Shown here piece after piece: positions 16,260 to 22,218 of a stretch of 41,154 nucleotides of DNA (the stretch's first letter is position 1; the number at the start of each line of letters is the position of its first letter). This stretch comes from a virus. The DNA is taken from the IMG/VR virus record IMGVR_UViG_3300019458_000063, positions 1 to 41,154 of that record; one strand, written 5' to 3'. A model generated the notes under the pieces. The model was not told the DNA's origin. It saw only the letters and a list, made by a program, of their open reading frames with translations, and made no database searches. A program made the translations under genes and the position numbers.

Positions 16260-16733
16260 ATGGCAACACTGAACGTACAGGGCGGGGCGCTGGCCATCAC
16301 CGATGGCACGCTCTCCAATTCGGCGCTCTCGTCCAACGCGAACATCAGTGAAACGAAACTCCAACATCGCTACAACATCCCCTACTATCAGACCACGGCG
16401 ACGACCGTGGCGGCGCAAACGGCGCCGATCTATCGTGCCTACCGCGGCGGGAACATTTTGTCCGTCACGGTCACGCCGCACACGATCCCCACCTCTGGAA
16501 CTTACACCGTTGATGTGCAGAAGGCCGCCAATGGTGGCAGCTACGCGACCATTCTCACGGCCGTCGTCACGGTCAATCCTAGTCCGAGCGCGAACAACAC
16601 GGATCAGCCCGGCCCACTGGCGACGACCACCTACAGCGCGGGCGACAAGTTCCGCGTGGTCGTGGCGATCTCATCGCCTGCCAACTCCGCCGGCGTGACC
16701 GTGATGCTCGCACTGTCCGAGGACCCCCAATAA
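16260..16733 (+). CDS. Tail-tip paralog 1 of 3 (unknown function)
   Basis: 157 aa; shares TKLQH.Y, ..D..K......S..L..V.T, T.Y.AGD...V.V and a C-terminal L.ED/NP with the next two ORFs. Confidence 0.65.
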   Translation: MATLNVQGGALAITDGTLSNSALSSNANISETKLQHRYNIPYYQTTATTVAAQTAPIYRAYRGGNILSVTVTPHTIPTSGTYTVDVQKAANGGSYATILTAVVTVNPSPSANNTDQPGPLATTTYSAGDKFRVVVAISSPANSAGVTVMLALSEDPQ

Positions 16734-17218
16734 TGCCGCACGTCCTCGATAGCGATACCACCGTGCAAGGTGGGCTGACCTGCACCACACTGACGATCAA
16801 CAGCACCGCCACTCAGCTCTCCGCGACCAAGCTGCAGCACCAGTACAATCGCACGATCATCTTCGACGGCGCGACGGACGTGTCCTCGGGCTCGGCGATC
16901 ATCCACGCCACGTTCGGCGCGACGGCGACGATCGTGGCCGGTCGTTTCTGGACCGAGACCGCGCCAGCCGGTGGCAACCTGCAATTCACGATCGATTTCC
17001 AGAAGGGGAACGCCGGAAGTGTGTTCTCCTCCATTCTCTCGTCCGTGCTGACGATTGATTCTTCGCGCGCCGATCGCACACCTTACGGCGCGACGTTCTC
17101 GGGCACGGCGCTCGTAGCGGGCGACATCGTGCAGATCGTGGTTGCAGCCTCGGGGACCACAGGCACGCAAGCGCAGGGGGGCATGGTGCAGTTGATCGTG
17201 CGCGAGGACCCAGCATAA
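16733..17218 (+). CDS. Tail-tip paralog 2 of 3 (unknown function)
   Basis: 161 aa; ETAPAGGNLQFTIDFQKG...ASGTTGTQAQ...REDPA parallels paralog 3. Confidence 0.65.
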   Translation: MPHVLDSDTTVQGGLTCTTLTINSTATQLSATKLQHQYNRTIIFDGATDVSSGSAIIHATFGATATIVAGRFWTETAPAGGNLQFTIDFQKGNAGSVFSSILSSVLTIDSSRADRTPYGATFSGTALVAGDIVQIVVAASGTTGTQAQGGMVQLIVREDPA

Positions 17219-17219
17219 A

Positions 17220-17678
17220 ATGGCGAACCTCATCGCGGGCAACTTGACCGTGAGCGGCACCATCACATGCGACAACGTGACAAGCGTGAGCGGGACCGTT
17301 CAGTTCGCGGTGCACCACAAGCAGGTGTCCGGCGCGGATGTCGCGAGCAAGAGCGAGGTCGTGCACATCGCGCGGGCGGCCGGCACGATCGTCGCGGTTC
17401 AGGTCTCCGCCGAGACCGCGCCCACGGGCGGCGATAAGCAGTTCACCGTCGATCTGCACAAGGGCTCTCAGTCCGCGGCGTATGCTACGACGCTCTCGGC
17501 AGTGGTCACGTACGATGACGCCTCGACGGCCGACAAGCAGGTTCTCTCCGGCACGTTGTCGACGACGACCTACGCAGCGGGTGATCAGCTCAAGGTGATC
17601 GTCACGGCGTCCGGCACGACCGGCAGCCAGGGTCAGGACCTGTGCGTCACCGTTTGGTTGCGCGAGAACCCTGCGTGA
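17220..17678 (+). CDS. Tail-tip paralog 3 of 3 (unknown function)
   Basis: 152 aa; ETAPTGGDKQFTVDLHKG...ASGTTGSQGQ...RENPA. Confidence 0.65.
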   Translation: MANLIAGNLTVSGTITCDNVTSVSGTVQFAVHHKQVSGADVASKSEVVHIARAAGTIVAVQVSAETAPTGGDKQFTVDLHKGSQSAAYATTLSAVVTYDDASTADKQVLSGTLSTTTYAAGDQLKVIVTASGTTGSQGQDLCVTVWLRENPA

Positions 17679-18150: not shown

Positions 18151-18516
18151 TTGAGATGCCAATTCTTACAATCCTCTGCGAAAGACCGCCAGTATAAGTG
18201 TGTCGTCTGCGGCTATGTCTGTCGTTCTCCGTTCTCATCAGAACGCATTTTTCGCAACTGCCCGTCTCAACAAAATACCACGCTTCCTCCCCTCTCAGAT
18301 CGAATTACTTCTTTCGCCGCCGCCTCGTCTCGTCATGCGGCCAATGGATTCCGCGAACGCAGCGAGCCAGAAATCCGACACATCGTGGCCATCTGCGACG
18401 CGTGTCCGCATTACAAGGACGGCCGCTGTCTCAAGTGCGGCTGTAAGGCCACCGGGAAAGGACACTTTGACAAGATCCTCTGGGAGTCGGAGCACTGCCC
18501 AATCGGGAAATGGTAG
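18151..18516 (+). CDS. Zinc-binding-like small protein (CxxC motifs, C-terminal CPIGKW)
   Basis: 121 aa; CVVCGYVC...ICDACPHYKDGRCLKCGCKA...HCPIGKW; non-ATG (TTG) start, so the 5' end is uncertain. Confidence 0.45.
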   Translation: MRCQFLQSSAKDRQYKCVVCGYVCRSPFSSERIFRNCPSQQNTTLPPLSDRITSFAAASSRHAANGFRERSEPEIRHIVAICDACPHYKDGRCLKCGCKATGKGHFDKILWESEHCPIGKW

Positions 18517-18540
18517 GGGGCAGTGGCTGGGCGGCCCATG

Positions 18541-18580
18541 AAAAAAAGGCCGGCCGCGGGATTGCTCGCCGCGACCGGCC
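18541..18580 (-). terminator. Rho-independent terminator of the leftward operon, between convergent operons
   Basis: ggccggccgcg...cgcgaccggcc forms an 11-bp stem with one mismatch. On the minus strand it is followed by U7 (plus-strand aaaaaaa 18541-18547). Confidence 0.7.
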
Positions 18581-18598
18581 CGAACGAAAGGGCGAACC

Positions 18599-18994
18599 TT
18601 AGGACAATTCCTCGGCGGGCAGGTCCGCGATGCACTCGGCCGCGAGCGTGGGCCAGCGGTCGGCGTCATCAGCGTGGTGCTCGGCCGCCGCGATGTCGCG
18701 GCAGACATCATTCACCGCCGCGCAGATGTCTGCGCCAGATGGTAGCAGCACTCCGCGTTTCGCGGAGTAGCCCCGCGCTCCTTGGTGCAGGGTCTCGTAC
18801 CTGTAGACCGCGTAGACGATCGACCTCCCATCGTAGTGCTGGCGAACGCCGGCAAACCAACGGCTCTTGACGCTCGCTTGATACTCGACCTGGCTGTCAT
18901 GCTCCAGGTCTTCTACGGCGGCCAGCAGAGGCCACGTGTCGTCGTCGATCTTGACCGGTGGCCGGTCGGTCAGTGTGATGGTGCGATGTGGCAT
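18599..18994 (-). CDS. Hypothetical protein (last gene of the leftward operon)
   Basis: 131 aa, MPHRTITLTDRPPVKIDDDTW...; AGGAGA ribosome-binding site upstream. Confidence 0.6.
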   Translation of the reverse strand: MPHRTITLTDRPPVKIDDDTWPLLAAVEDLEHDSQVEYQASVKSRWFAGVRQHYDGRSIVYAVYRYETLHQGARGYSAKRGVLLPSGADICAAVNDVCRDIAAAEHHADDADRWPTLAAECIADLPAEELS

Positions 18995-19090
18995 TGTCAG
19001 ATCTCCTGTTGCGCGATGATGCCTCGCGCGAGGCTCCGACGAGTTACTCCGTCGGCGGAGTTGCGCCCCGGCCCTAACGAAAGGGCTCCG

Positions 19091-19366
19091 CTATTCGGTC
19101 ACCATTTCTTTGACGGCTCTTATTCCAGCGAGCCGCATGCTGGCCACGAATGTGGCGCTGGCGACATCGGGCATGTGAGCCTGGAAGGCTGCGTTGGCAT
19201 CCGTCAGCGCCGATTCCATGCAGGCGCTGATGTGGCCCGTGAGAGTCGTCAGCAACTTATCTCGATCGAGACTCGATCGATCAATGTTATGCGCCCGCAG
19301 GTACTCCGCGGCACCTTCAAGCGCGCTCGCGCAGGCGACATCGATGAACGTGTCGGTCTCGTTCAT
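19091..19366 (-). CDS. Hypothetical small protein (91 aa)
   Basis: Start moved to MNETDTF (ATG 19366), which follows the conserved ACACGAAAGGGAAAACC leader. Confidence 0.55.
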   Translation of the reverse strand: MNETDTFIDVACASALEGAAEYLRAHNIDRSSLDRDKLLTTLTGHISACMESALTDANAAFQAHMPDVASATFVASMRLAGIRAVKEMVTE

Positions 19367-19387
19367 GGTTTTCCCTTTCGTGTTTGC

Positions 19388-19448
19388 GCCCAGGAAATAT
19401 ACCACAGATGTATAGGTTTCGTCGCCTGCCGGCGGCTCGTCAGCGGGC
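19388..19448 (-). ncRNA. Hammerhead-like element, copy A (core intact, stem III imperfect)
   Basis: Minus strand: GCCCG CUGACGA GCCGCC-GGCA-GGCGAC GAAA CCUAUAC-AUCUGUG-GUAUAUUUC C UGGGC. Confidence 0.3.
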
Positions 19449-19449
19449 T

Positions 19450-19623
19450 CTACTCACTCTCCGCCGGGGGGACCCACGTTCGATCATCCGCATAAGCGCG
19501 GCAGCGGCAGGTGTCTGGATCGATCGATCCGGTACACTCTCCAGCCTCTTCCCGATGCAATTCCCACGTCGCGAAGTCCGGCAGAAAACCTCCACAGCAA
19601 GCGCAAGTTCGTGTCTCGGTCAT
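19450..19623 (-). CDS. Small Cys-rich protein (57 aa)
   Basis: MTETRTCACCGGFLPDF...; ATG 19623 follows an AGAAAGGAAAAAC leader. Confidence 0.5.
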   Translation of the reverse strand: MTETRTCACCGGFLPDFATWELHREEAGECTGSIDPDTCRCRAYADDRTWVPPAESE

Positions 19624-19686
19624 GTTTTTCCTTTCTTTTTTGTTCACCCCGGACCGGCCGCCGTGGCCGGTCTCGCCGCCTGCCCG

Positions 19687-19881
19687 TCAACTGCGCACGT
19701 GCGCGATGATCTCTCCATCCACTTCGATGTTGCCGTAGCCCCCCACCCGATCGAGCCAGCGCTCGAAGGAGTCGACATCCCGGACATACTTGGGCACGTC
19801 GCTCTGCGCGAGAGCTTCGCACAGATCGTGGGCCTCGATTGTCTCGGTTCCGCTGTCGGTCGTAATGTAGTAGGTTCGCAT
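19687..19881 (-). CDS. Small acidic hypothetical protein (64 aa)
   Basis: MRTYYITTDSGTETIEAHDL...; follows a CGAAAGGGAAAGACG leader. Confidence 0.55.
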   Translation of the reverse strand: MRTYYITTDSGTETIEAHDLCEALAQSDVPKYVRDVDSFERWLDRVGGYGNIEVDGEIIAHVRS

Positions 19882-19930
19882 CGTCTTTCCCTTTCGTTCG
19901 TTTTTTTTTGCGCTCGCCCCTCAGCGGGAC

Positions 19931-20164
19931 TCACCCGATCTGCCAGTGGTACGTGCCATCTGGTCTCTCGACATCGCCGGAGCCTGTGTAGCGCCCGGCG
20001 TCTTGAGGTTCCGCGTCAATCGCATCTTGGATCGCCTCATAGGTTTCGTCGCTCGCATCCTGGTTCGGCCCCAGCATGGACGCGCAGATGATCTCGCCGT
20101 CACTGTCGATCATGCCCTCTCCGCTCCACACTCCGTCATGATAGATCGTGATCTTGGTTCTCAT
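19931..20164 (-). CDS. Small acidic hypothetical protein (77 aa)
   Basis: Start at MRTKITIYHDG (ATG 20164) after an ACACGAAAUGGAAAACG leader; the upstream part of track ORF 19931..20296 covers the spacer element. Confidence 0.55.
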   Translation of the reverse strand: MRTKITIYHDGVWSGEGMIDSDGEIICASMLGPNQDASDETYEAIQDAIDAEPQDAGRYTGSGDVERPDGTYHWQIG

Positions 20165-20222
20165 CGTTTTCCATTTCGTGTTTGCGCCCCGGACCGCCCG
20201 CGGCAGCTCATCAGCGTGATAA

Positions 20223-20519
20223 TCATACCAGCCGCCAGTCCCCAAATCCGAACAGAATCCCCTTCGCGTGCCCGGTGTGCAGCACACACCAACCACTGGC
20301 GCCGAGTCGATTGGCCAGCTTCACGAGCTCGGTGCAAGAGCGTGTCGGGTGTGCCTCGACTGCGAGGCCGTCGCGACCGTGCACCATCATCCAGCCCAGC
20401 ACCCCCTTTGAGTCCTGGATTGTCCAGTAGCCTGGCCGTTTTGACTTCACAGTCATGTCCAGATTATTCGCCACGCTCTCGGCCTCGCGGAGAATCGCGC
20501 CCGCTGCTTTGCTCGCCAT
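20223..20519 (-). CDS. Hypothetical protein (98 aa)
   Basis: Start at MASKAAGAILRE (ATG 20519) after an ACACGAAAGGGAAAAAAG leader. Confidence 0.55.
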   Translation of the reverse strand: MASKAAGAILREAESVANNLDMTVKSKRPGYWTIQDSKGVLGWMMVHGRDGLAVEAHPTRSCTELVKLANRLGASGWCVLHTGHAKGILFGFGDWRLV

Positions 20520-20542
20520 CTTTTTTCCCTTTCGTGTTTTCG

Positions 20543-20602
20543 CCCCAGACCTACACCGAAGTGGTGTAGGTTTCATCGACTGCCGGCGGCTCATCAGCGG
20601 GA
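20543..20602 (-). ncRNA. Hammerhead-like element, copy B (best copy; type-I topology, GUC cleavage triplet)
   Basis: Minus strand: UCCCG CUGAUGA GCCGCC-GGCA-GUCGAU GAAA CCUACACC-ACUUC-GGUGUAGG UC|UGGGG. Stem III is 9 perfect base pairs (20571-20563 with 20549-20557). Confidence 0.5.
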
Positions 20603-20833
20603 TAACGCTGTCGCAAATTTTTCCTCGCCATCCGTGTCGCTTATGTCGTGAGCCTCGCCCGTTGCGCTGTATCTGCCGTTGCTCTGCTGGATTCTCTCCA
20701 TCCATCCGCGCTTGCTTCGTCGCACTTGGTGCATGTGCACTCCGCCGGCGGAGCGCTGGTCTTGCGCCACGTCGTGCGTGTAACCAGTGATGCTGTAGGT
20801 GTTCCAGTTTTTTCTTTGGATTTTCGCGGTCAT
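20594..20833 (-). CDS. Hypothetical small protein (79 aa)
   Basis: MTAKIQRKNWNTYSITGY...; its UGA stop lies inside the CUGAUGA of element copy B. Confidence 0.55.
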   Translation of the reverse strand: MTAKIQRKNWNTYSITGYTHDVAQDQRSAGGVHMHQVRRSKRGWMERIQQSNGRYSATGEAHDISDTDGEEKFATALSR

Positions 20834-20855
20834 CGTCTTTCCCTTTCGTGTTTGG

Positions 20856-20912
20856 CCCCGGAACTATAACCGATGTGTAGGTTTCGCCGCCCGCCGGCGT
20901 CTCGTCAGCGGG
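20856..20912 (-). ncRNA. Hammerhead-like element, copy C (core intact, stem III imperfect)
   Basis: Minus strand: CCCG CUGACGA GACGCC-GGCG-GGCGGC GAAA CCUACAC-AUCG-GUUAUAGUU C CGGGG; starts right after the stop of the upstream gene. Confidence 0.3.
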
Positions 20913-21188
20913 CTAGATTCTCACCGCTCCAATCACGCGGCAATCGCCCGTGCTGGCGACGCGCAGATCGTCGAGGCGACACTCGATCTGTTCGCCCTCG
21001 TCTCCTTCAGACCAGCAGACCAGTCCGGCGAGTTCTCCCTGTTCCTCGTCTCCCCACCAGCCGCCGTCGACGAATTCGGCGTTCTCGATCTCGTTTTGCG
21101 GCTCCCAGCCAACGGGCTCGCACCAGCGGGCGCCGGCGATCGAGCTGCGGTGCTGGAGGATCACGGTGAGTGTCTTCGTTTCGTCCAT
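20913..21188 (-). CDS. Strongly acidic small protein (91 aa), first gene of the small-gene operon
   Basis: My count is 20 Asp/Glu against 7 Lys/Arg; WWGDEEQGELAGLVCWSEGDEGEQIE. Confidence 0.55.
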   Translation of the reverse strand: MDETKTLTVILQHRSSIAGARWCEPVGWEPQNEIENAEFVDGGWWGDEEQGELAGLVCWSEGDEGEQIECRLDDLRVASTGDCRVIGAVRI

Positions 21189-21230
21189 CGCATTTCCCTT
21201 TCGTTCTTGTTGCCCCTCACATCTATATAT

Positions 21231-21259
21231 ACTATACGCTGCGGCGAAGGAATAGTCAA
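21231..21259 (-). promoter_or_regulatory. Sigma70-like promoter for the leftward small-gene operon
   Basis: Minus strand TTGACT (21259-21254), 17 nt, TATAGT (21236-21231), in an AT-rich spacer about 45 nt upstream of ATG 21188. Confidence 0.6.
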
Positions 21260-21296
21260 CAACAATCCGAAAAGAATTCCAAAATAGTTGTAAACC

Positions 21297-21482
21297 CTAC
21301 CCCTGTATAGACTTAGGTCGACCATTTCGCCGCTCGATACGGGCAAAGTCGAGGACGTCCTGGCGCTCGAAGGCCAGTCGGCCGGCAAATCGGCTCGACG
21401 GCAGCCGCCCCGCGGCGGCGAACTGCTCGACCCGGCGCATGGAGACTCGAAGAATCTTCGCGGCCTCGAAACATCTAATCAT
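21297..21482 (-). CDS. Excisionase/AlpA/MerR-type helix-turn-helix DNA-binding protein
   Basis: 61 aa; AAKILRVSMRRVEQFAAAGRLPSSRFAGRLAFERQDVLDF fits the HTH_17/excisionase-family pattern. Confidence 0.65.
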   Translation of the reverse strand: MIRCFEAAKILRVSMRRVEQFAAAGRLPSSRFAGRLAFERQDVLDFARIERRNGRPKSIQG

Positions 21483-21519
21483 GGATCGTATACCCCAAAG
21501 GTAAACAATTCAATGGGCC

Positions 21520-21801
21520 TCATTTGCTTAACTGTTGCTGCAATTCGCGAAGAAATGACTCTAGAGCGCTGGATTCCTCAATCGACAGGAATGGCACAAT
21601 CACCTGGAAAATAATCACGAACCACATCGTGGCTAGGACCGCAGCGAGGATCGCAGCGAGGATCGCGGCGAGGCTCAAGTTCACCGTGCTCTGGATCTCC
21701 TTGAGGGATTTTTGCACGGACTCCATGCTCTTCTGAAAGTTCTTGTCGCTCGTCAGGACGGCCTCCTTCATCTTCAGGGCTTCTCGGGGCGGGGCGCTCA
21801 T
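21520..21801 (-). CDS. Small membrane protein (one TM helix encoded by 12-nt repeats)
   Basis: 93 aa with LSLAAILAAILAAVLATMWFVIIFQVIV; AAGGAGA ribosome-binding site; AT-richer than its surroundings. Confidence 0.55.
   Translation of the reverse strand: MSAPPREALKMKEAVLTSDKNFQKSMESVQKSLKEIQSTVNLSLAAILAAILAAVLATMWFVIIFQVIVPFLSIEESSALESFLRELQQQLSK
21629..21676. repeat. 4 x 12-nt tandem repeat (gcagcgaggatc) inside the membrane-protein gene
   Basis: gtggctaggacc / gcagcgaggatc / gcagcgaggatc / gcggcgaggctc. Confidence 0.8.
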
Positions 21802-21829
21802 GGCATCTCCTTCTCGGGGGCAATGCCCC

Positions 21830-21858
21830 TTGCGTACAGTTATTATATCTGCTACAAT
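21830..21858 (+). promoter_or_regulatory. Rightward sigma70-like promoter giving a leaderless XRE-regulator mRNA
   Basis: TTGCGT (21830-21835), 17 nt, TACAAT (21853-21858). The ATG at 21865 is 6 nt past the -10, with no room for a ribosome-binding site. Confidence 0.6.
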
Positions 21859-21871
21859 CCCGGCATGTCAA
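21842..21871 (-). promoter_or_regulatory. Leftward sigma70-like promoter overlapping the rightward one
   Basis: Minus strand TTGACA (21871-21866), 18 nt, TATAAT (21847-21842). The GGGGCA-A-TGCCCC inverted repeat at 21816-21828 lies in its leader. Confidence 0.6.
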
Positions 21872-22071
21872 TCATCGGCGCAAAGTTCCGCGCGAATCTA
21901 CGGCACGCCTGCGCAGCCAAGGGACTCAGCCAGCAGGAGCTGGCCCGCCGCTCGGGAGTGCACTGGGTGACGATCAGTCGTATCCTCCACGGCCACCAAG
22001 AGCCGAGCATGATCGTCTGCGAGCGCCTGGCCGAGGCCGCAAGGATTCCGCGCTCAAAAATTTTCTCGTGA
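21865..22071 (+). CDS. XRE/Cro-CI-family HTH transcriptional regulator
   Basis: 68 aa; LRHACAAKGLSQQELARRSGVHWVTISRILHGHQEPS is a canonical HTH_3 pattern. Confidence 0.85.
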   Translation: MSIIGAKFRANLRHACAAKGLSQQELARRSGVHWVTISRILHGHQEPSMIVCERLAEAARIPRSKIFS

Positions 22072-22087
22072 TCTTGCCAAGCTGCTA

Positions 22088-22116
22088 TTGACCAAGTTTA
22101 TCGGACTCGTTATTCT
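22088..22116 (+). promoter_or_regulatory. Candidate rightward early promoter
   Basis: TTGACC (22088-22093), 17 nt, TATTCT (22111-22116). Confidence 0.4.
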
Positions 22117-22184
22117 TTCGCAAAGTACGAATCGAAAACGACCTCGCCCGGTGACACCCCCGATCAGCTCGGCGGTCGAGGTCA

Positions 22185-22218
22185 CCCCCGGCTTGTCGCC
22201 GGGGGATTTTACATTTTT
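22185..22218 (+). terminator. Rho-independent terminator-like hairpin (terminator for the XRE gene or leader attenuator)
   Basis: cccccggc-ttgtc-gccggggg (8-bp GC stem) followed by attttacattttt; lies 18 nt upstream of ATG 22236. Confidence 0.6.

What the first reader, a model, noticed from the sequence alone, without database searches (positions are those of the whole stretch)
20543..20602. Type-I hammerhead-ribozyme-like motif in the spacer between two small early genes (best copy)
On the minus (coding) strand the spacer reads 5'-UCCCG CUGAUGA GCCGCC-GGCA-GUCGAU GAAA CCUACACC-ACUUC-GGUGUAGG UC|UGGGG-3'.

It has the hammerhead features in the correct order:
- Both conserved core strands are present (CUGAnGA and GAAA).
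- A hairpin lies between them (stem II).
- A perfect 9-bp hairpin follows GAAA. Its first pair is A15.1-U16.1, and it ends in the canonical GUC cleavage triplet. The predicted cut is between 20548 and 20547.
- The flanks CCCG and UGGG(G) can close stem I, which gives type-I topology.

The UGA inside CUGAUGA is the stop codon of the upstream 79-aa gene. Cleavage would therefore separate the two cistrons exactly at the gene boundary.

The weak point is stem II. It has G-U at positions 10.1/11.1 and two internal mismatches, so catalytic competence is uncertain.
Basis: partly seen in the sequence, partly recalled or inferred. Interest (0 to 1): 0.85.

Follow-up and report, generated by a model that had tools for sequence, protein, structure and literature searches.

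The report
Eroded hammerhead ribozyme copies between phage genes
The spacer does hold a hammerhead-ribozyme-type sequence, one of three full copies and three or four remnants between the small early genes of a phage, but this kind of phage ribozyme array is already known and every copy here carries damage that probably weakens or abolishes self-cleavage.

Summary
The minus strand 20603-20542 has CUGAUGA, GAAA, a perfect 9-bp stem III, GUC and a closing stem I. The stop codon of the 79-aa gene lies inside the core.

It is not a chance look-alike. A covariance model I built from eight textbook phage type-I hammerheads gives three top hits in the 41-kb window. They are 20914-20855 (29.4 bits), 20603-20542 (28.7) and 19449-19387 (26.2), with E-values of 1e-5 to 1e-6. 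Chance matches to the fetch pattern score 8-18 bits. Canonical relatives score 35-72.

The layout is that of a class widespread in phages and prophages: stop codon, CCCG, core, GGCR-capped stem II, GAAA, stem III, UC|CGGG, RBS. That class often occurs in arrays.

Every copy here breaks a pair that is always formed in the class:
- 10.2/11.2 is mispaired in all three copies.
- 10.1/11.1 is G.U in the reported copy.
- 15.2/16.2 is C.U in the other two.

The hammerhead fold lies 4.6-7.2 kcal/mol above the minimum free energy; in 20 controls the gap is 0-1.5. Three other spacers hold deletion remnants.

Best reading: an eroding array of a known phage hammerhead class. Rfam's gathering threshold is uninformative, because textbook controls fail it too. 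Only a cleavage assay can settle activity.

The parts
21231..21259 (-). Sigma-70-like promoter TTGACT-17-TATAGT upstream of the first small gene; the likely start of the polycistronic early transcript.
   Evidence: Promoter scan, 10 of 12 matches; sequence read.
20913..21188 (-). Early gene 1 (91 aa, no family match). Its stop codon UAG (20915-20913) directly abuts stem I of copy A.
20855..20914 (-). Hammerhead-type copy A. CCCG is at 20912-20909 and CUGACGA at 20908-20902. Stem II is G-ACGCC-GGCG-GGCGG-C, with A.G at 10.2/11.2. GAAA ends at A15.1 = 20882. Stem III is weak, with C.U at 15.2/16.2 and a C.A mismatch. U16.1 = 20862 and C17 = 20861. The predicted cut is 20861|20860. Stem I 3' strand CGGG is at 20860-20857.
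   Evidence: My model R1 gives 29.4 bits, E = 1.8e-6. Rfam Hammerhead_1 gives 13.2 bits, E = 5.6. The hammerhead fold is 7.2 kcal/mol above the MFE.
20594..20833 (-). Early gene 2 (79 aa, no family match). Its stop codon UGA (20596-20594) is U4-G5-A6 of copy B.
20542..20603 (-). Hammerhead-type copy B, the reported finding. The core is intact. Stem III is 9 bp and perfect. Stem I has 5 pairs, including U1.1.G2.1. Stem II is eroded: G.U, C.A, C-G, G-C, C.U, C-G, with loop GGCA. The predicted cut is 20548|20547.
   Evidence: R1 gives 28.7 bits, E = 2.8e-6. Rfam RAGATH-1-hammerhead gives 17.8 bits, E = 1.9. The hammerhead fold is 6.8 kcal/mol above the MFE.
20223..20519 (-). Early gene 3 (98 aa). 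It is an ORFan: its only database match is itself.
20186..20220 (-). Remnant D: CACG-CUGAUGA-GCUGCC-GCG-GGCGG-UC-CGGGG. The segment C11.1-GAAA-stem III has been deleted.
   Evidence: R1 gives 12.7 bits, E = 0.16, the fourth-best hit in the window; alignment A4.
19931..20164 (-). Early gene 4 (77 aa).
19915..19928 (-). Remnant E: CCCG-CUGA directly joined to GGGGCG. Only the two stem I strands and the first four core bases remain.
   Evidence: Sequence read; alignment A4.
19687..19881 (-). Early gene 5 (64 aa).
19647..19690 (-). Remnant F: UUGACG-GGCA-GGCGGC-GAGA-CCGGCC-ACGGC-GGCCGG-UC|CGGGG. Stem III, UC and the stem I 3' strand are perfect. A14 is G, C3 is U, and A9 plus the 5' strand of stem II are deleted.
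   Evidence: Sequence read; alignment A4.
19450..19623 (-). Early gene 6 (57 aa).
19387..19449 (-). Hammerhead-type copy C. The core is intact. Stem II is G-CCGCC-GGCA-GGCGA-C, with C.A at 10.2/11.2. Stem III is a 5-bp hairpin UAUAC/GUAUA, separated from the core by two C.U mismatches. With U16.1 = 19395 and C17 = 19394, stem I has a U.C mismatch. The other register puts C at 16.1.
   Evidence: R1 gives 26.2 bits, E = 1.5e-5. The hammerhead fold is 4.6 kcal/mol above the MFE.
19091..19366 (-). Early gene 7 (91 aa).
19061..19086 (-). Possible 3'-half remnant G: hairpin GCCCU-UUCGUU-AGGGC followed by CGGGGCGCAA. This is the same post-cleavage leader as in remnant D.
   Evidence: Sequence read; repeat family D14. 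This is a weak assignment.
18599..18994 (-). Early gene 8 (131 aa), the last gene of the unit.
18541..18580 (-). Intrinsic terminator GGCCGGUCGCGG-loop-CCGCGGCCGGCC followed by U7. It ends the transcription unit. No terminator-like site was found between it and the promoter.
   Evidence: Sequence read; terminator scan of 18500-22200.

Best explanation
The spacer element descends from a known, widespread class of phage and prophage type-I hammerhead ribozymes.

In that class the ribozyme sits directly after a stop codon. It cuts at UC|CGGG. The downstream cistron is released with a short standard leader and ribosome-binding site.

In this phage the whole leftward early operon (promoter 21259-21231 to terminator 18580-18541, eight small ORFan genes) was once punctuated by such ribozymes, one in every spacer. 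Self-cleavage would have cut the polycistronic RNA into single-gene mRNAs.

The array is now eroding.
- Three spacers keep full-length copies (A, B, C). Their 11 conserved core bases, the A15.1 position and the cleavage-site C are intact, but each has its own uncompensated lesion in a helix.
- Three or four spacers keep only deletion remnants (D, E, F, perhaps G).

The reported copy B keeps stems I and III but has lost most of stem II, including the G10.1-C11.1 pair. It is therefore most likely a very slow or inactive self-cleaver.

What is shown: the homology, the layout, the lesions, and the energetic disadvantage of the hammerhead fold. What is inferred: the ancestral function (RNA processing), and loss or weakening of cleavage today.
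For: 1. Homology.
- Model R1 was built from 8 canonical phage hammerheads.
- Copies A, B and C are its top three hits in 41 kb, at 29.4, 28.7 and 26.2 bits (E = 1.8e-6 to 1.5e-5). Remnant D comes next at 12.7 bits, and noise is at or below 11.5.
- Chance matches to the fetch pattern score 8-17.7 bits.

2. Same layout as canonical members found in viral contigs and in 65 bacterial genomes of many phyla.
- The order is stop codon, CCCG, CUGAYGA, stem II capped by GGCR, GAAA, stem III, UC|CGGG, RYGCAA tail, RBS, AUG.
- They often occur as arrays: 7 copies in L007, 5 in L022, 5 in L036.

3. The class is a real structured RNA. 95.4% of cells are paired, 11 of 15 pairs change on both sides, and 0 of 500 shuffles reach the observed values.

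4. Lesions.
- In the class, 10.1/11.1 is G-C in 33 of 33, 10.2/11.2 is paired in 33 of 33, and 15.2/16.2 is C-G in 29 of 29.
- In the window, 10.2/11.2 is mispaired in all three copies (A.G, C.A, C.A). B has G.U at 10.1/11.1 plus a C.U mismatch. A and C have C.U at 15.2/16.2.
- None of the three passes a descriptor that asks for 3 contiguous pairs per stem; 25 canonical hammerheads in the fetched loci pass it.

5. Energetics. The hammerhead topology equals the MFE in 20 of 20 controls (gap at most 1.5 kcal/mol). It lies 7.2, 6.8 and 4.6 kcal/mol above the MFE for A, B and C.

6. Erosion pattern.
- Comparing A, B, C, D and F gives a perfect ancestral stem II, G-CCGCC-GGCR-GGCGG-C.
- Each copy carries a different disruptive change, and none is compensated in stem II.
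- D, E and F are internal deletions of the same element.

7. One transcription unit. There is a promoter at 21259-21231, no internal terminator, and a strong terminator at 18580-18541.

8. Precedent. Clustered hammerheads flanking genes in prophages are described and shown active. [quoted passage not shown]
Against: - The core bases are intact in all three full copies. The only core position that varies among them is N7, the one position free to vary. This would also be expected under continuing selection, although by my count it has roughly a 9% chance of arising by accident.
- Stem III shows one compensatory change between B and C (C-G to U-A at 15.6/16.6).
- The 5' half of the element is 80-89% identical among copies, which is unusual for junk.
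- Natural hammerheads with very short stem II can be active when a tertiary contact helps (PMC3088659). Copy A keeps a possible 3-bp contact between loop II and the 3' tail (GGC/GCC).
- Nearest-neighbour energies ignore the tertiary structure of the core and co-transcriptional folding.
- No close relatives of this phage were found, so orthologous conservation could not be tested.
Confidence: 0.6

Rival explanations
1. At least one full copy (B or A) is still a working hammerhead, perhaps slow. It cuts the early polycistronic RNA at the gene boundary and so sets the stability or translation of the downstream cistron. The helix defects tune the rate rather than abolish it.
For: - The catalytic core, A15.1-U16.1 and C17 are intact in A and B.
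- Stems I and III of B are perfect or wobble-paired.
- R1 E-values are about 1e-6.
- The placement is typical of the class: after a stop codon, before the RBS, in a terminator-free operon.
- Perreault et al. note that slow phage variants exist and may be conditionally active, and that stem II can be as short as 1-2 bp.
- The core is conserved across the paralogues, with variation only at N7.
Against: - B has G.U at 10.1/11.1 and a mismatch at 10.2/11.2. Both pairs are formed without exception in 33 class members.
- Competing folds are 4.6-7.2 kcal/mol more stable and sequester core bases.
- The covarying contact between loop II and the 3' tail seen in the class is reduced to 2 bp in B and C.
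- Neighbouring spacers hold obviously dead remnants, so the phage tolerates loss of the ribozyme.
- By the published screening rules these copies would be rejected.
Confidence: 0.3
2. The repeats now serve another purpose, and the hammerhead sequence is only a fossil inside them. One option is internal promoters: the -10-like hexamers TATAGT in A and TGGTATATT in C have replaced the 3' arm of stem III. Another is standard boundary cassettes that provide homology for shuffling small early genes, together with a uniform leader and RBS.
For: - The 3' arm of stem III in A reads TATAGT, identical to the -10 hexamer of the operon promoter. In C it reads TGG-TATATT, an extended -10 form with GCGACG 18 bp upstream (read).
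- The leader ACGAAAGGGAAA-N4-5-AUG is shared by seven of the eight gene starts, including the promoter-proximal one that has no hammerhead.
- The flanking genes are unrelated ORFans, while the spacers are 60-89% identical.
Against: - The promoter scan reports none of the spacers.
- A has no -35 element and no TG extension. B has no -10-like hexamer at all.
- The host and its promoter consensus are unknown.
- Nothing tested here shows recombination at these repeats.
Confidence: 0.12
3. The resemblance to a hammerhead is accidental. The repeat is an unrelated intergenic element that happens to contain CUGAYGA and GAAA.
For: - Independent Rfam models give only non-significant scores: 13.2 bits (E = 5.6) and 17.8 bits (E = 1.9).
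- My model was trained on sequences fetched with a pattern taken from the window, so part of its score is built in.
Against: - Pattern-only controls score 8-17.7 bits against 26-29 for the window copies.
- Several features that were not in the fetch pattern are shared with canonical members. These are UC followed by the complement of the 4 bases before CUGA, the GGCR loop II, the GCGCAA-type tail, and the position right after a stop codon and before an RBS.
- Remnant F carries a perfect stem III plus UC|CGGGG.
Confidence: 0.03

Closest known systems
Clustered hammerhead ribozymes flanking genes in prophage and phage polycistronic transcripts (Perreault et al. 2011, PMC3088659; for example the triple hammerhead around ardA in Agrobacterium tumefaciens, and Clostridium scindens)
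   Same: - Several hammerheads lie in the intergenic spacers of one phage transcription unit, flanking single small genes whose identity is not conserved.
- The proposed role is to cut a long transcript into single-gene mRNAs.
- The paper also records non-functional 'cryptic mutant' copies in repeated elements.
   Different: - The published arrays were shown to cleave in vitro and in E. coli.
- Here every copy has helix lesions or deletions, and no activity data exist.
- I could not check whether the tested A. tumefaciens sequences belong to the same CCCG...UC|CGGG subclass.
The phage type-I hammerhead subclass seen here (for example L005 4156-4212, L027 3120-3174, L022, L036, L007; 65 bacterial genomes)
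   Same: The order of parts is the same: stop codon, 4-5 bp stem I (CCCG/CGGG), CUGAYGA, stem II capped by GGCR, GAAA, stem III hairpin, UC| cut site, RYGCAA-like tail, RBS. Members also occur in multi-copy arrays.
   Different: - Members have all three stems fully paired, and the hammerhead fold is the MFE.
- They score 35-72 bits with R1. The window copies score 26-29 bits and fold otherwise.
Rfam RF00163 Hammerhead_1 and RF03152 RAGATH-1-hammerhead
   Same: Both models align the window copies end to end in the expected register.
   Different: - The scores are 13.2 bits against a gathering score of 34, and 17.8 against 56.3. Both are far below threshold and not significant.
- The canonical control L005 also stays below threshold, at 23.7 and 19.1 bits.
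RNase III processing sites between the early genes of phage T7 (my own knowledge, not tested here)
   Same: Structured RNA elements in the spacers of a phage early polycistronic transcript separate the cistrons.
   Different: In T7 cleavage is by a host enzyme acting on a hairpin, not by the RNA itself. There is no sequence relationship.
PeSL (promoter-early stem-loop) repeats flanking small ORFan early genes in T4-type phages (my own knowledge, not tested here)
   Same: Repeated intergenic cassettes bracket small, fast-evolving early genes, and may act as module boundaries.
   Different: PeSL elements are promoter-plus-hairpin units with no ribozyme ancestry. A recombination role is untested here.

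Membership tests
Hammerhead ribozyme, type I | Conserved core C3-U4-G5-A6-N7-G8-A9 and G12-A13-A14, in the order stem I 5' strand, core, stem II hairpin, GAA, stem III hairpin, cleavage site, stem I 3' strand. | tested here: met
   All three full copies have it: CUGAUGA...GAAA in B, CUGACGA...GAAA in A and C. Only N7 varies.
Hammerhead ribozyme, type I | An A15.1-U16.1 pair, with a cleavage-site base H17 that is not G. | tested here: met
   B has A20571-U20549 and C17 = 20548. A has A20882-U20862 and C17 = 20861. For C this holds only in a register that puts a U.C mismatch in stem I.
Hammerhead ribozyme, type I | Standard pairs directly next to the core: 10.1-11.1 (G-C in nearly all natural members) and 1.1-2.1. 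| tested here: inconclusive
   In B both are G.U wobbles. In A and C they are G-C and C-G. In the class, 10.1-11.1 is G-C in 33 of 33, and 1.1-2.1 is G.U in 1 of 33. A wobble is not a mispair, but at 10.1-11.1 it is unprecedented in this class.
Hammerhead ribozyme, type I | Stem II is a real helix, without multiple mispairs in a short stem (the screening rule of PMC3088659). | tested here: not met
   B reads G.U, C.A, C-G, G-C, C.U, C-G. A and C have one mismatch at 10.2/11.2, followed by 4 G-C pairs. The class is paired at 10.2/11.2 in 33 of 33.
Hammerhead ribozyme, type I | Stem III is a real helix starting at 15.1-16.1. | tested here: met
   This is met for B, with 9 contiguous pairs. It is not met for A (C.U at 15.2/16.2, then C.A) or for C (two C.U mismatches next to the core). 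The class has C-G at 15.2/16.2 in 29 of 29.
Hammerhead ribozyme, type I | The three-helix junction is the preferred fold of the RNA. | tested here: not met
   The hammerhead topology lies 7.2 (A), 6.8 (B) and 4.6 (C) kcal/mol above the MFE. In 20 canonical controls the gap is 0-1.5.
Hammerhead ribozyme, type I | A significant match to a covariance model of the family. | tested here: inconclusive
   - Rfam's gathering score is not reached. None of 11 textbook loci reaches it either, and L005, scored in detail, gets 23.7 bits against 34.
- My own class model gives E = 1e-5 to 1e-6, with the copies sitting between pattern-only controls (8-18 bits) and canonical members (35-72 bits).
Hammerhead ribozyme, type I | Site-specific self-cleavage that gives a 2',3'-cyclic phosphate and a 5'-OH. 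| not testable with these tools
   This needs in vitro transcription and cleavage, or RNA end mapping.
Phage/prophage intergenic hammerhead arrays (Perreault et al. 2011) | Several copies in the spacers of one phage transcription unit, flanking single genes or short gene blocks. | tested here: met
   There are three full copies and three to four remnants in seven successive spacers, between promoter 21259-21231 and terminator 18580-18541.
Rfam RF03152 RAGATH-1-hammerhead | A score at or above the gathering score of 56.3 bits. | tested here: not met
   17.8 bits, matching only model positions 27-76 of 77.

The most novel reading that the evidence does not exclude
The damaged copies are not dead. 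They form a graded set of slow or conditionally active ribozymes that sets the relative dosage of the early ORFan proteins.

Alternatively they act in a split arrangement. The intact enzyme half of copy A can pair with the intact substrate arm of copy B: an 8-bp stem III plus a 4-bp stem I, 333 nt apart. A single long-range hammerhead would then cut at 20548|20547, downstream of gene 2.

In parallel, the 3' arms of A and C may have been converted into -10 promoter elements. That would be a case of ribozymes being replaced by promoters within one operon.
Probability: 0.1. Interest if true: 0.6.

Novelty: new member of a known kind. Interest (0 to 1): 0.3.

Why it matters
If the copies cleave, this is one more example of a phage cutting an early polycistronic RNA with its own ribozymes. 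That behaviour has been known since 2011, but its biological purpose is still unsettled.

The more useful points are practical.
- The operon preserves, side by side, full copies, point-damaged copies and deletion remnants of one ribozyme. This is a natural series for asking which helix defects a type-I hammerhead tolerates, and how such arrays decay.
- A whole, widespread phage subclass of textbook type-I hammerheads falls below Rfam's gathering score, so routine annotation misses it. 'No Rfam hit' should not be read as absence.

Tried and rejected
1. Rfam at the gathering threshold on the whole window gave nothing. At E <= 10 on 18800-21600 no hammerhead family appeared. This was shown to be uninformative by positive controls that also fail. 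A narrower search gave weak sub-threshold alignments.

2. The search for close relatives of the phage, needed to test orthologous conservation, failed throughout:
- blastn of the operon against phage records found no match;
- a specific DNA pattern in viral contigs gave one chance coding hit, L168;
- the leader 16-mer gave 48 hits, all unrelated;
- the 131-aa protein and the SNF2-type helicase found nothing in viral or genome contigs;
- the 98-aa protein matches only itself among 5.8 billion proteins;
- the metagenome pattern scan found only unrelated canonical hammerheads;
- the exact-protein look-up found the same phage again at 99.97% identity.

3. PHROGs gave no function for the eight small genes.

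4. My first MAFFT alignment of 21 hammerheads put stem III out of register. I replaced it with a length-homogeneous set of 8.

5. I looked for alternative stem II registers with a bulge in copies A-C by hand and found none that restores pairing.

6. I looked for alternative stem III partners downstream. None exists for C. For A the only one is the 3' arm of copy B.

7. The sigma-70 scan does not call promoters inside the spacers.
Full report
**What is there**

On the minus strand the window carries a run of eight small genes: 21188-20913, 20833-20594, 20519-20223, 20164-19931, 19881-19687, 19623-19450, 19366-19091 and 18994-18599.
- The run starts downstream of a sigma-70-like promoter, TTGACT-17-TATAGT, at 21259-21231.
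- It ends at a strong intrinsic terminator at 18580-18541.
- No terminator-like site lies between the two.
- None of the eight proteins matches a PHROG family. The 98-aa one has no relative among 5.8 billion proteins.

The rest of the window is an HK97-type tailed-phage genome with terminase, portal, protease and capsid genes. Its terminase is under 40% identical to that of any phage on record. The same phage occurs at 99.97% identity in a Logan assembly of SRR7811943.

**The observation**

- UCCCG is followed by CUGAUGA, whose U4-G5-A6 is the stop codon of the 79-aa gene.
- Stem II is poor: GCCGCC-GGCA-GUCGAU.
- GAAA is followed by a perfect 9-bp stem III and then UC, with the cut predicted at 20548|20547.
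- UGGGG closes stem I.

The element is one of three full-length paralogous copies: A 20914-20855, B 20603-20542 and C 19449-19387. Seven of the eight gene starts, including the promoter-proximal one that has no hammerhead, are preceded by ACGAAAGGGAAA-N4-5-AUG or a near variant of it; the last gene instead has AGGAG before its AUG.

**Is it a hammerhead by descent?**

A scan of viral contigs with a loose pattern taken from the copies returned many chance hits inside coding sequence. It also returned dozens of textbook type-I hammerheads with exactly this layout:
- a stop codon;
- a 4-5 bp stem I (CCCG/CGGG);
- CUGAYGA;
- a stem II often capped by GGCR;
- GAAA and a stem III hairpin;
- UC|CGGG;
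- a tail such as ACGCAA or AUGCAA;
- an RBS and AUG.

They commonly come in arrays, with 7 copies in L007 and 5 each in L022 and L036. The same motif occurs in 65 species-representative bacterial genomes from many phyla.

On 33 distinct members the three stems are 95.4% paired, with changes on both sides at 11 of 15 pairs. None of 500 shuffles reaches these values. That alignment was fitted to the model, so it leans towards the structure.

A covariance model built from eight of these members ranks A, B and C as the three best hits in the window.

| Sequence set | R1 bit score |
|---|---|
| Copy A | 29.4 (E = 1.8e-6) |
| Copy B | 28.7 (E = 2.8e-6) |
| Copy C | 26.2 (E = 1.5e-5) |
| Truncated copy D (20220-20186) | 12.7 |
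| Noise in the window | at most 11.5 |
| Ten chance coding matches to the fetch pattern | 8-17.7 |
| Canonical members outside the training set | about 35-55 |
| Training members | up to 72 |

The training set was fetched with a pattern derived from the window, so I scored the ten chance coding matches as a control for circularity. The window copies are clearly of this family, but they sit well below its intact members.

**Why Rfam says nothing**

The whole window gives no hit at gathering thresholds. The operon gives no hammerhead hit even at E <= 10. A narrow search gives:
- 13.2 bits for A with Hammerhead_1 (gathering score 34);
- 17.8 bits for B with RAGATH-1-hammerhead (gathering score 56.3).

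However, none of eleven loci holding textbook members reaches a gathering score either. The one scored in detail, L005, gets only 23.7 and 19.1 bits with the same two models.

**Are the copies competent?**

Each copy breaks at least one pair that is formed without exception in the class.

| Pair | Class | Window |
|---|---|---|
| 10.1-11.1 | G-C in 33 of 33 | G.U in B |
| 10.2-11.2 | paired in 33 of 33 | A.G in A, C.A in B, C.A in C |
| 15.2-16.2 | C-G in 29 of 29 | C.U in A and C |

Further defects:
- B has an additional C.U mismatch in stem II.
- C has a second C.U mismatch in stem III and a U.C mismatch in stem I.
- None of the three passes a descriptor requiring three contiguous pairs per stem, which finds 25 hammerheads in the fetched loci.
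- The hammerhead topology is the minimum-free-energy fold, or within 1.5 kcal/mol of it, in 20 of 20 controls. It lies 7.2, 6.8 and 4.6 kcal/mol above the MFE for A, B and C, and the alternative folds sequester core bases.
- In the class, loop II pairs with the tail just after stem I, and the two covary: GGCA/UGC, GGCG/CGC, UUGAC/GUCGA, UGGC/GCCA. This is the type of pseudoknot that Perreault et al. found important for speed. Copy A could keep 3 such pairs. B and C keep only 2.

**Erosion**

Aligning all the spacers shows three deletion remnants.
- D keeps CUGAUGA, stem II and UC-CGGGG, but has lost C11.1-GAAA-stem III.
- E is CCCG-CUGA joined directly to GGGGCG.
- F keeps a perfect stem III plus UC|CGGGG, but has G at A14, U at C3 and a deletion of A9 and the 5' strand of stem II.

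A seventh spacer may hold a 3' remnant at 19086-19061.

Comparing 10.2 (C in B, C and D) with 11.2 (G in A, D and F) gives a perfectly paired ancestral stem II. Each copy then carries its own disruptive change, and none is compensated in stem II. This is the pattern expected when selection for the fold has relaxed. [quoted passage not shown]

**What argues the other way**
- The core is untouched, and only N7 varies among the copies.
- B and C show one compensatory change in stem III.
- The 5' half of the element is 80-89% identical among copies.
- Short stem II hammerheads can be active.

No relatives of this phage could be found to test orthologous conservation. I therefore put about 0.6 on 'eroded, at best very slow' and about 0.3 on 'at least one copy still cleaves usefully'.

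A side possibility is that the 3' arms of A (TATAGT, identical to the operon promoter's -10 hexamer) and of C (TGGTATATT) now act as -10 elements. The promoter scan does not support this, and the host consensus is unknown.

**Comparison with what is known**

Clustered hammerheads flanking genes in phage and prophage transcripts were published in 2011. That work demonstrated cleavage in vitro and in E. coli and proposed that long phage RNAs are processed into single-gene mRNAs (PMC3088659). A 2019 review still lists the purpose as unresolved (PMC6765202).

The present element is thus a new, probably degenerate, member of a known kind. Functionally the ancestral arrangement resembles the RNase III sites between T7 early genes. 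As repeated cassettes around ORFan early genes it resembles the PeSL repeats of T4-type phages. Both comparisons come from my own knowledge and are analogies only.

**Verdict**

Interest is 0.3. A simple cleavage assay with repaired-stem controls would settle the open point.

Noticed in passing
L005 4156-4212; L027 3120-3174; L022, L036, L007 (viral contigs): Textbook phage type-I hammerheads with a short open stem I fall below Rfam's gathering score. Eleven such loci gave 0 hits. L005 scores 23.7 bits against 34. Routine Rfam annotation therefore misses this widespread subclass.
   Followed up: partly
L005, L022, L027, L031, L036, L084, L087, L101 (hammerhead loop II and the 2-7 nt after stem I): Loop II and the tail just downstream of stem I covary: GGCA/UGC, GGCG/CGC, UUGAC/GUCGA, UGGC/GCCA, CGC/GCG. 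This suggests a conserved pseudoknot in the subclass. It was counted by eye, not tested statistically.
   Followed up: partly
window 20882-20909 with 20543-20557: The 5' (enzyme) half of copy A can pair with the 3' arm of copy B: an 8-bp stem III and a 4-bp stem I, 333 nt apart. This gives a possible long-range hammerhead that encloses gene 2.
   Followed up: no
window 20173: This is one of only two differences from a 99.97%-identical contig (L169). The window has ACGAAAUGGAAAA, whereas the other contig has the consensus leader ACGAAAGGGAAAA in front of gene 4. It hints that this leader/RBS motif is the selected form.
   Followed up: partly
window 21842-21871 (minus strand) and 21865-22071 (plus strand): A perfect 12-of-12 sigma-70 consensus promoter, TTGACA-18-TATAAT, lies on the minus strand. 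It overlaps the start of a plus-strand XRE-type repressor gene (PHROG 3, E = 6e-10). The layout looks like a lysis-lysogeny switch region. It drives a 93-aa gene and an excisionase-like HTH gene upstream of the hammerhead operon.
   Followed up: no
window 19071-19086 and 18578-18593 (minus strand): The repeated hairpin GCCCUUUCGUUNGGGC brackets the last gene of the operon. The second copy overlaps the 5' arm of the intrinsic terminator at 18580-18541.
   Followed up: no
window 20863-20868 and 19394-19402 (minus strand): The 3' arm of stem III reads TATAGT in copy A, identical to the -10 hexamer of the operon promoter at 21236-21231. In copy C it reads TGGTATATT, an extended -10 form. They could be internal promoters that have overwritten the ribozyme, but the promoter scan does not call them.
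   Followed up: partly
window 16260-17678 (plus strand): Three adjacent genes of 157, 161 and 152 aa look like paralogues, with similar N-terminal motifs around 'TKLQH' and a similar length. They lie at the end of the tail module and may be tail-fibre or receptor-binding variants.
   Followed up: no
L025/L075 (IMGVR_UViG_3300033066_000523), L012, L059: Another repeated hammerhead-like element is GGGGAACCUCCCCCG-CUGAUGA-stem II-GAAACCAGAACC, placed directly before an RBS. It has at least four copies in one contig. Stem I appears closed by a loop, so it may be type III. It was not analysed.
   Followed up: no
L226 4744-5485 (Gemmataceae MAG); L171 and L175 (metagenome): A Gemmataceae genome carries three canonical copies within about 740 nt. 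Two unrelated metagenome contigs combine a canonical hammerhead with the same ACGAAAGGGAAA ribosome-binding leader as the window.
   Followed up: no
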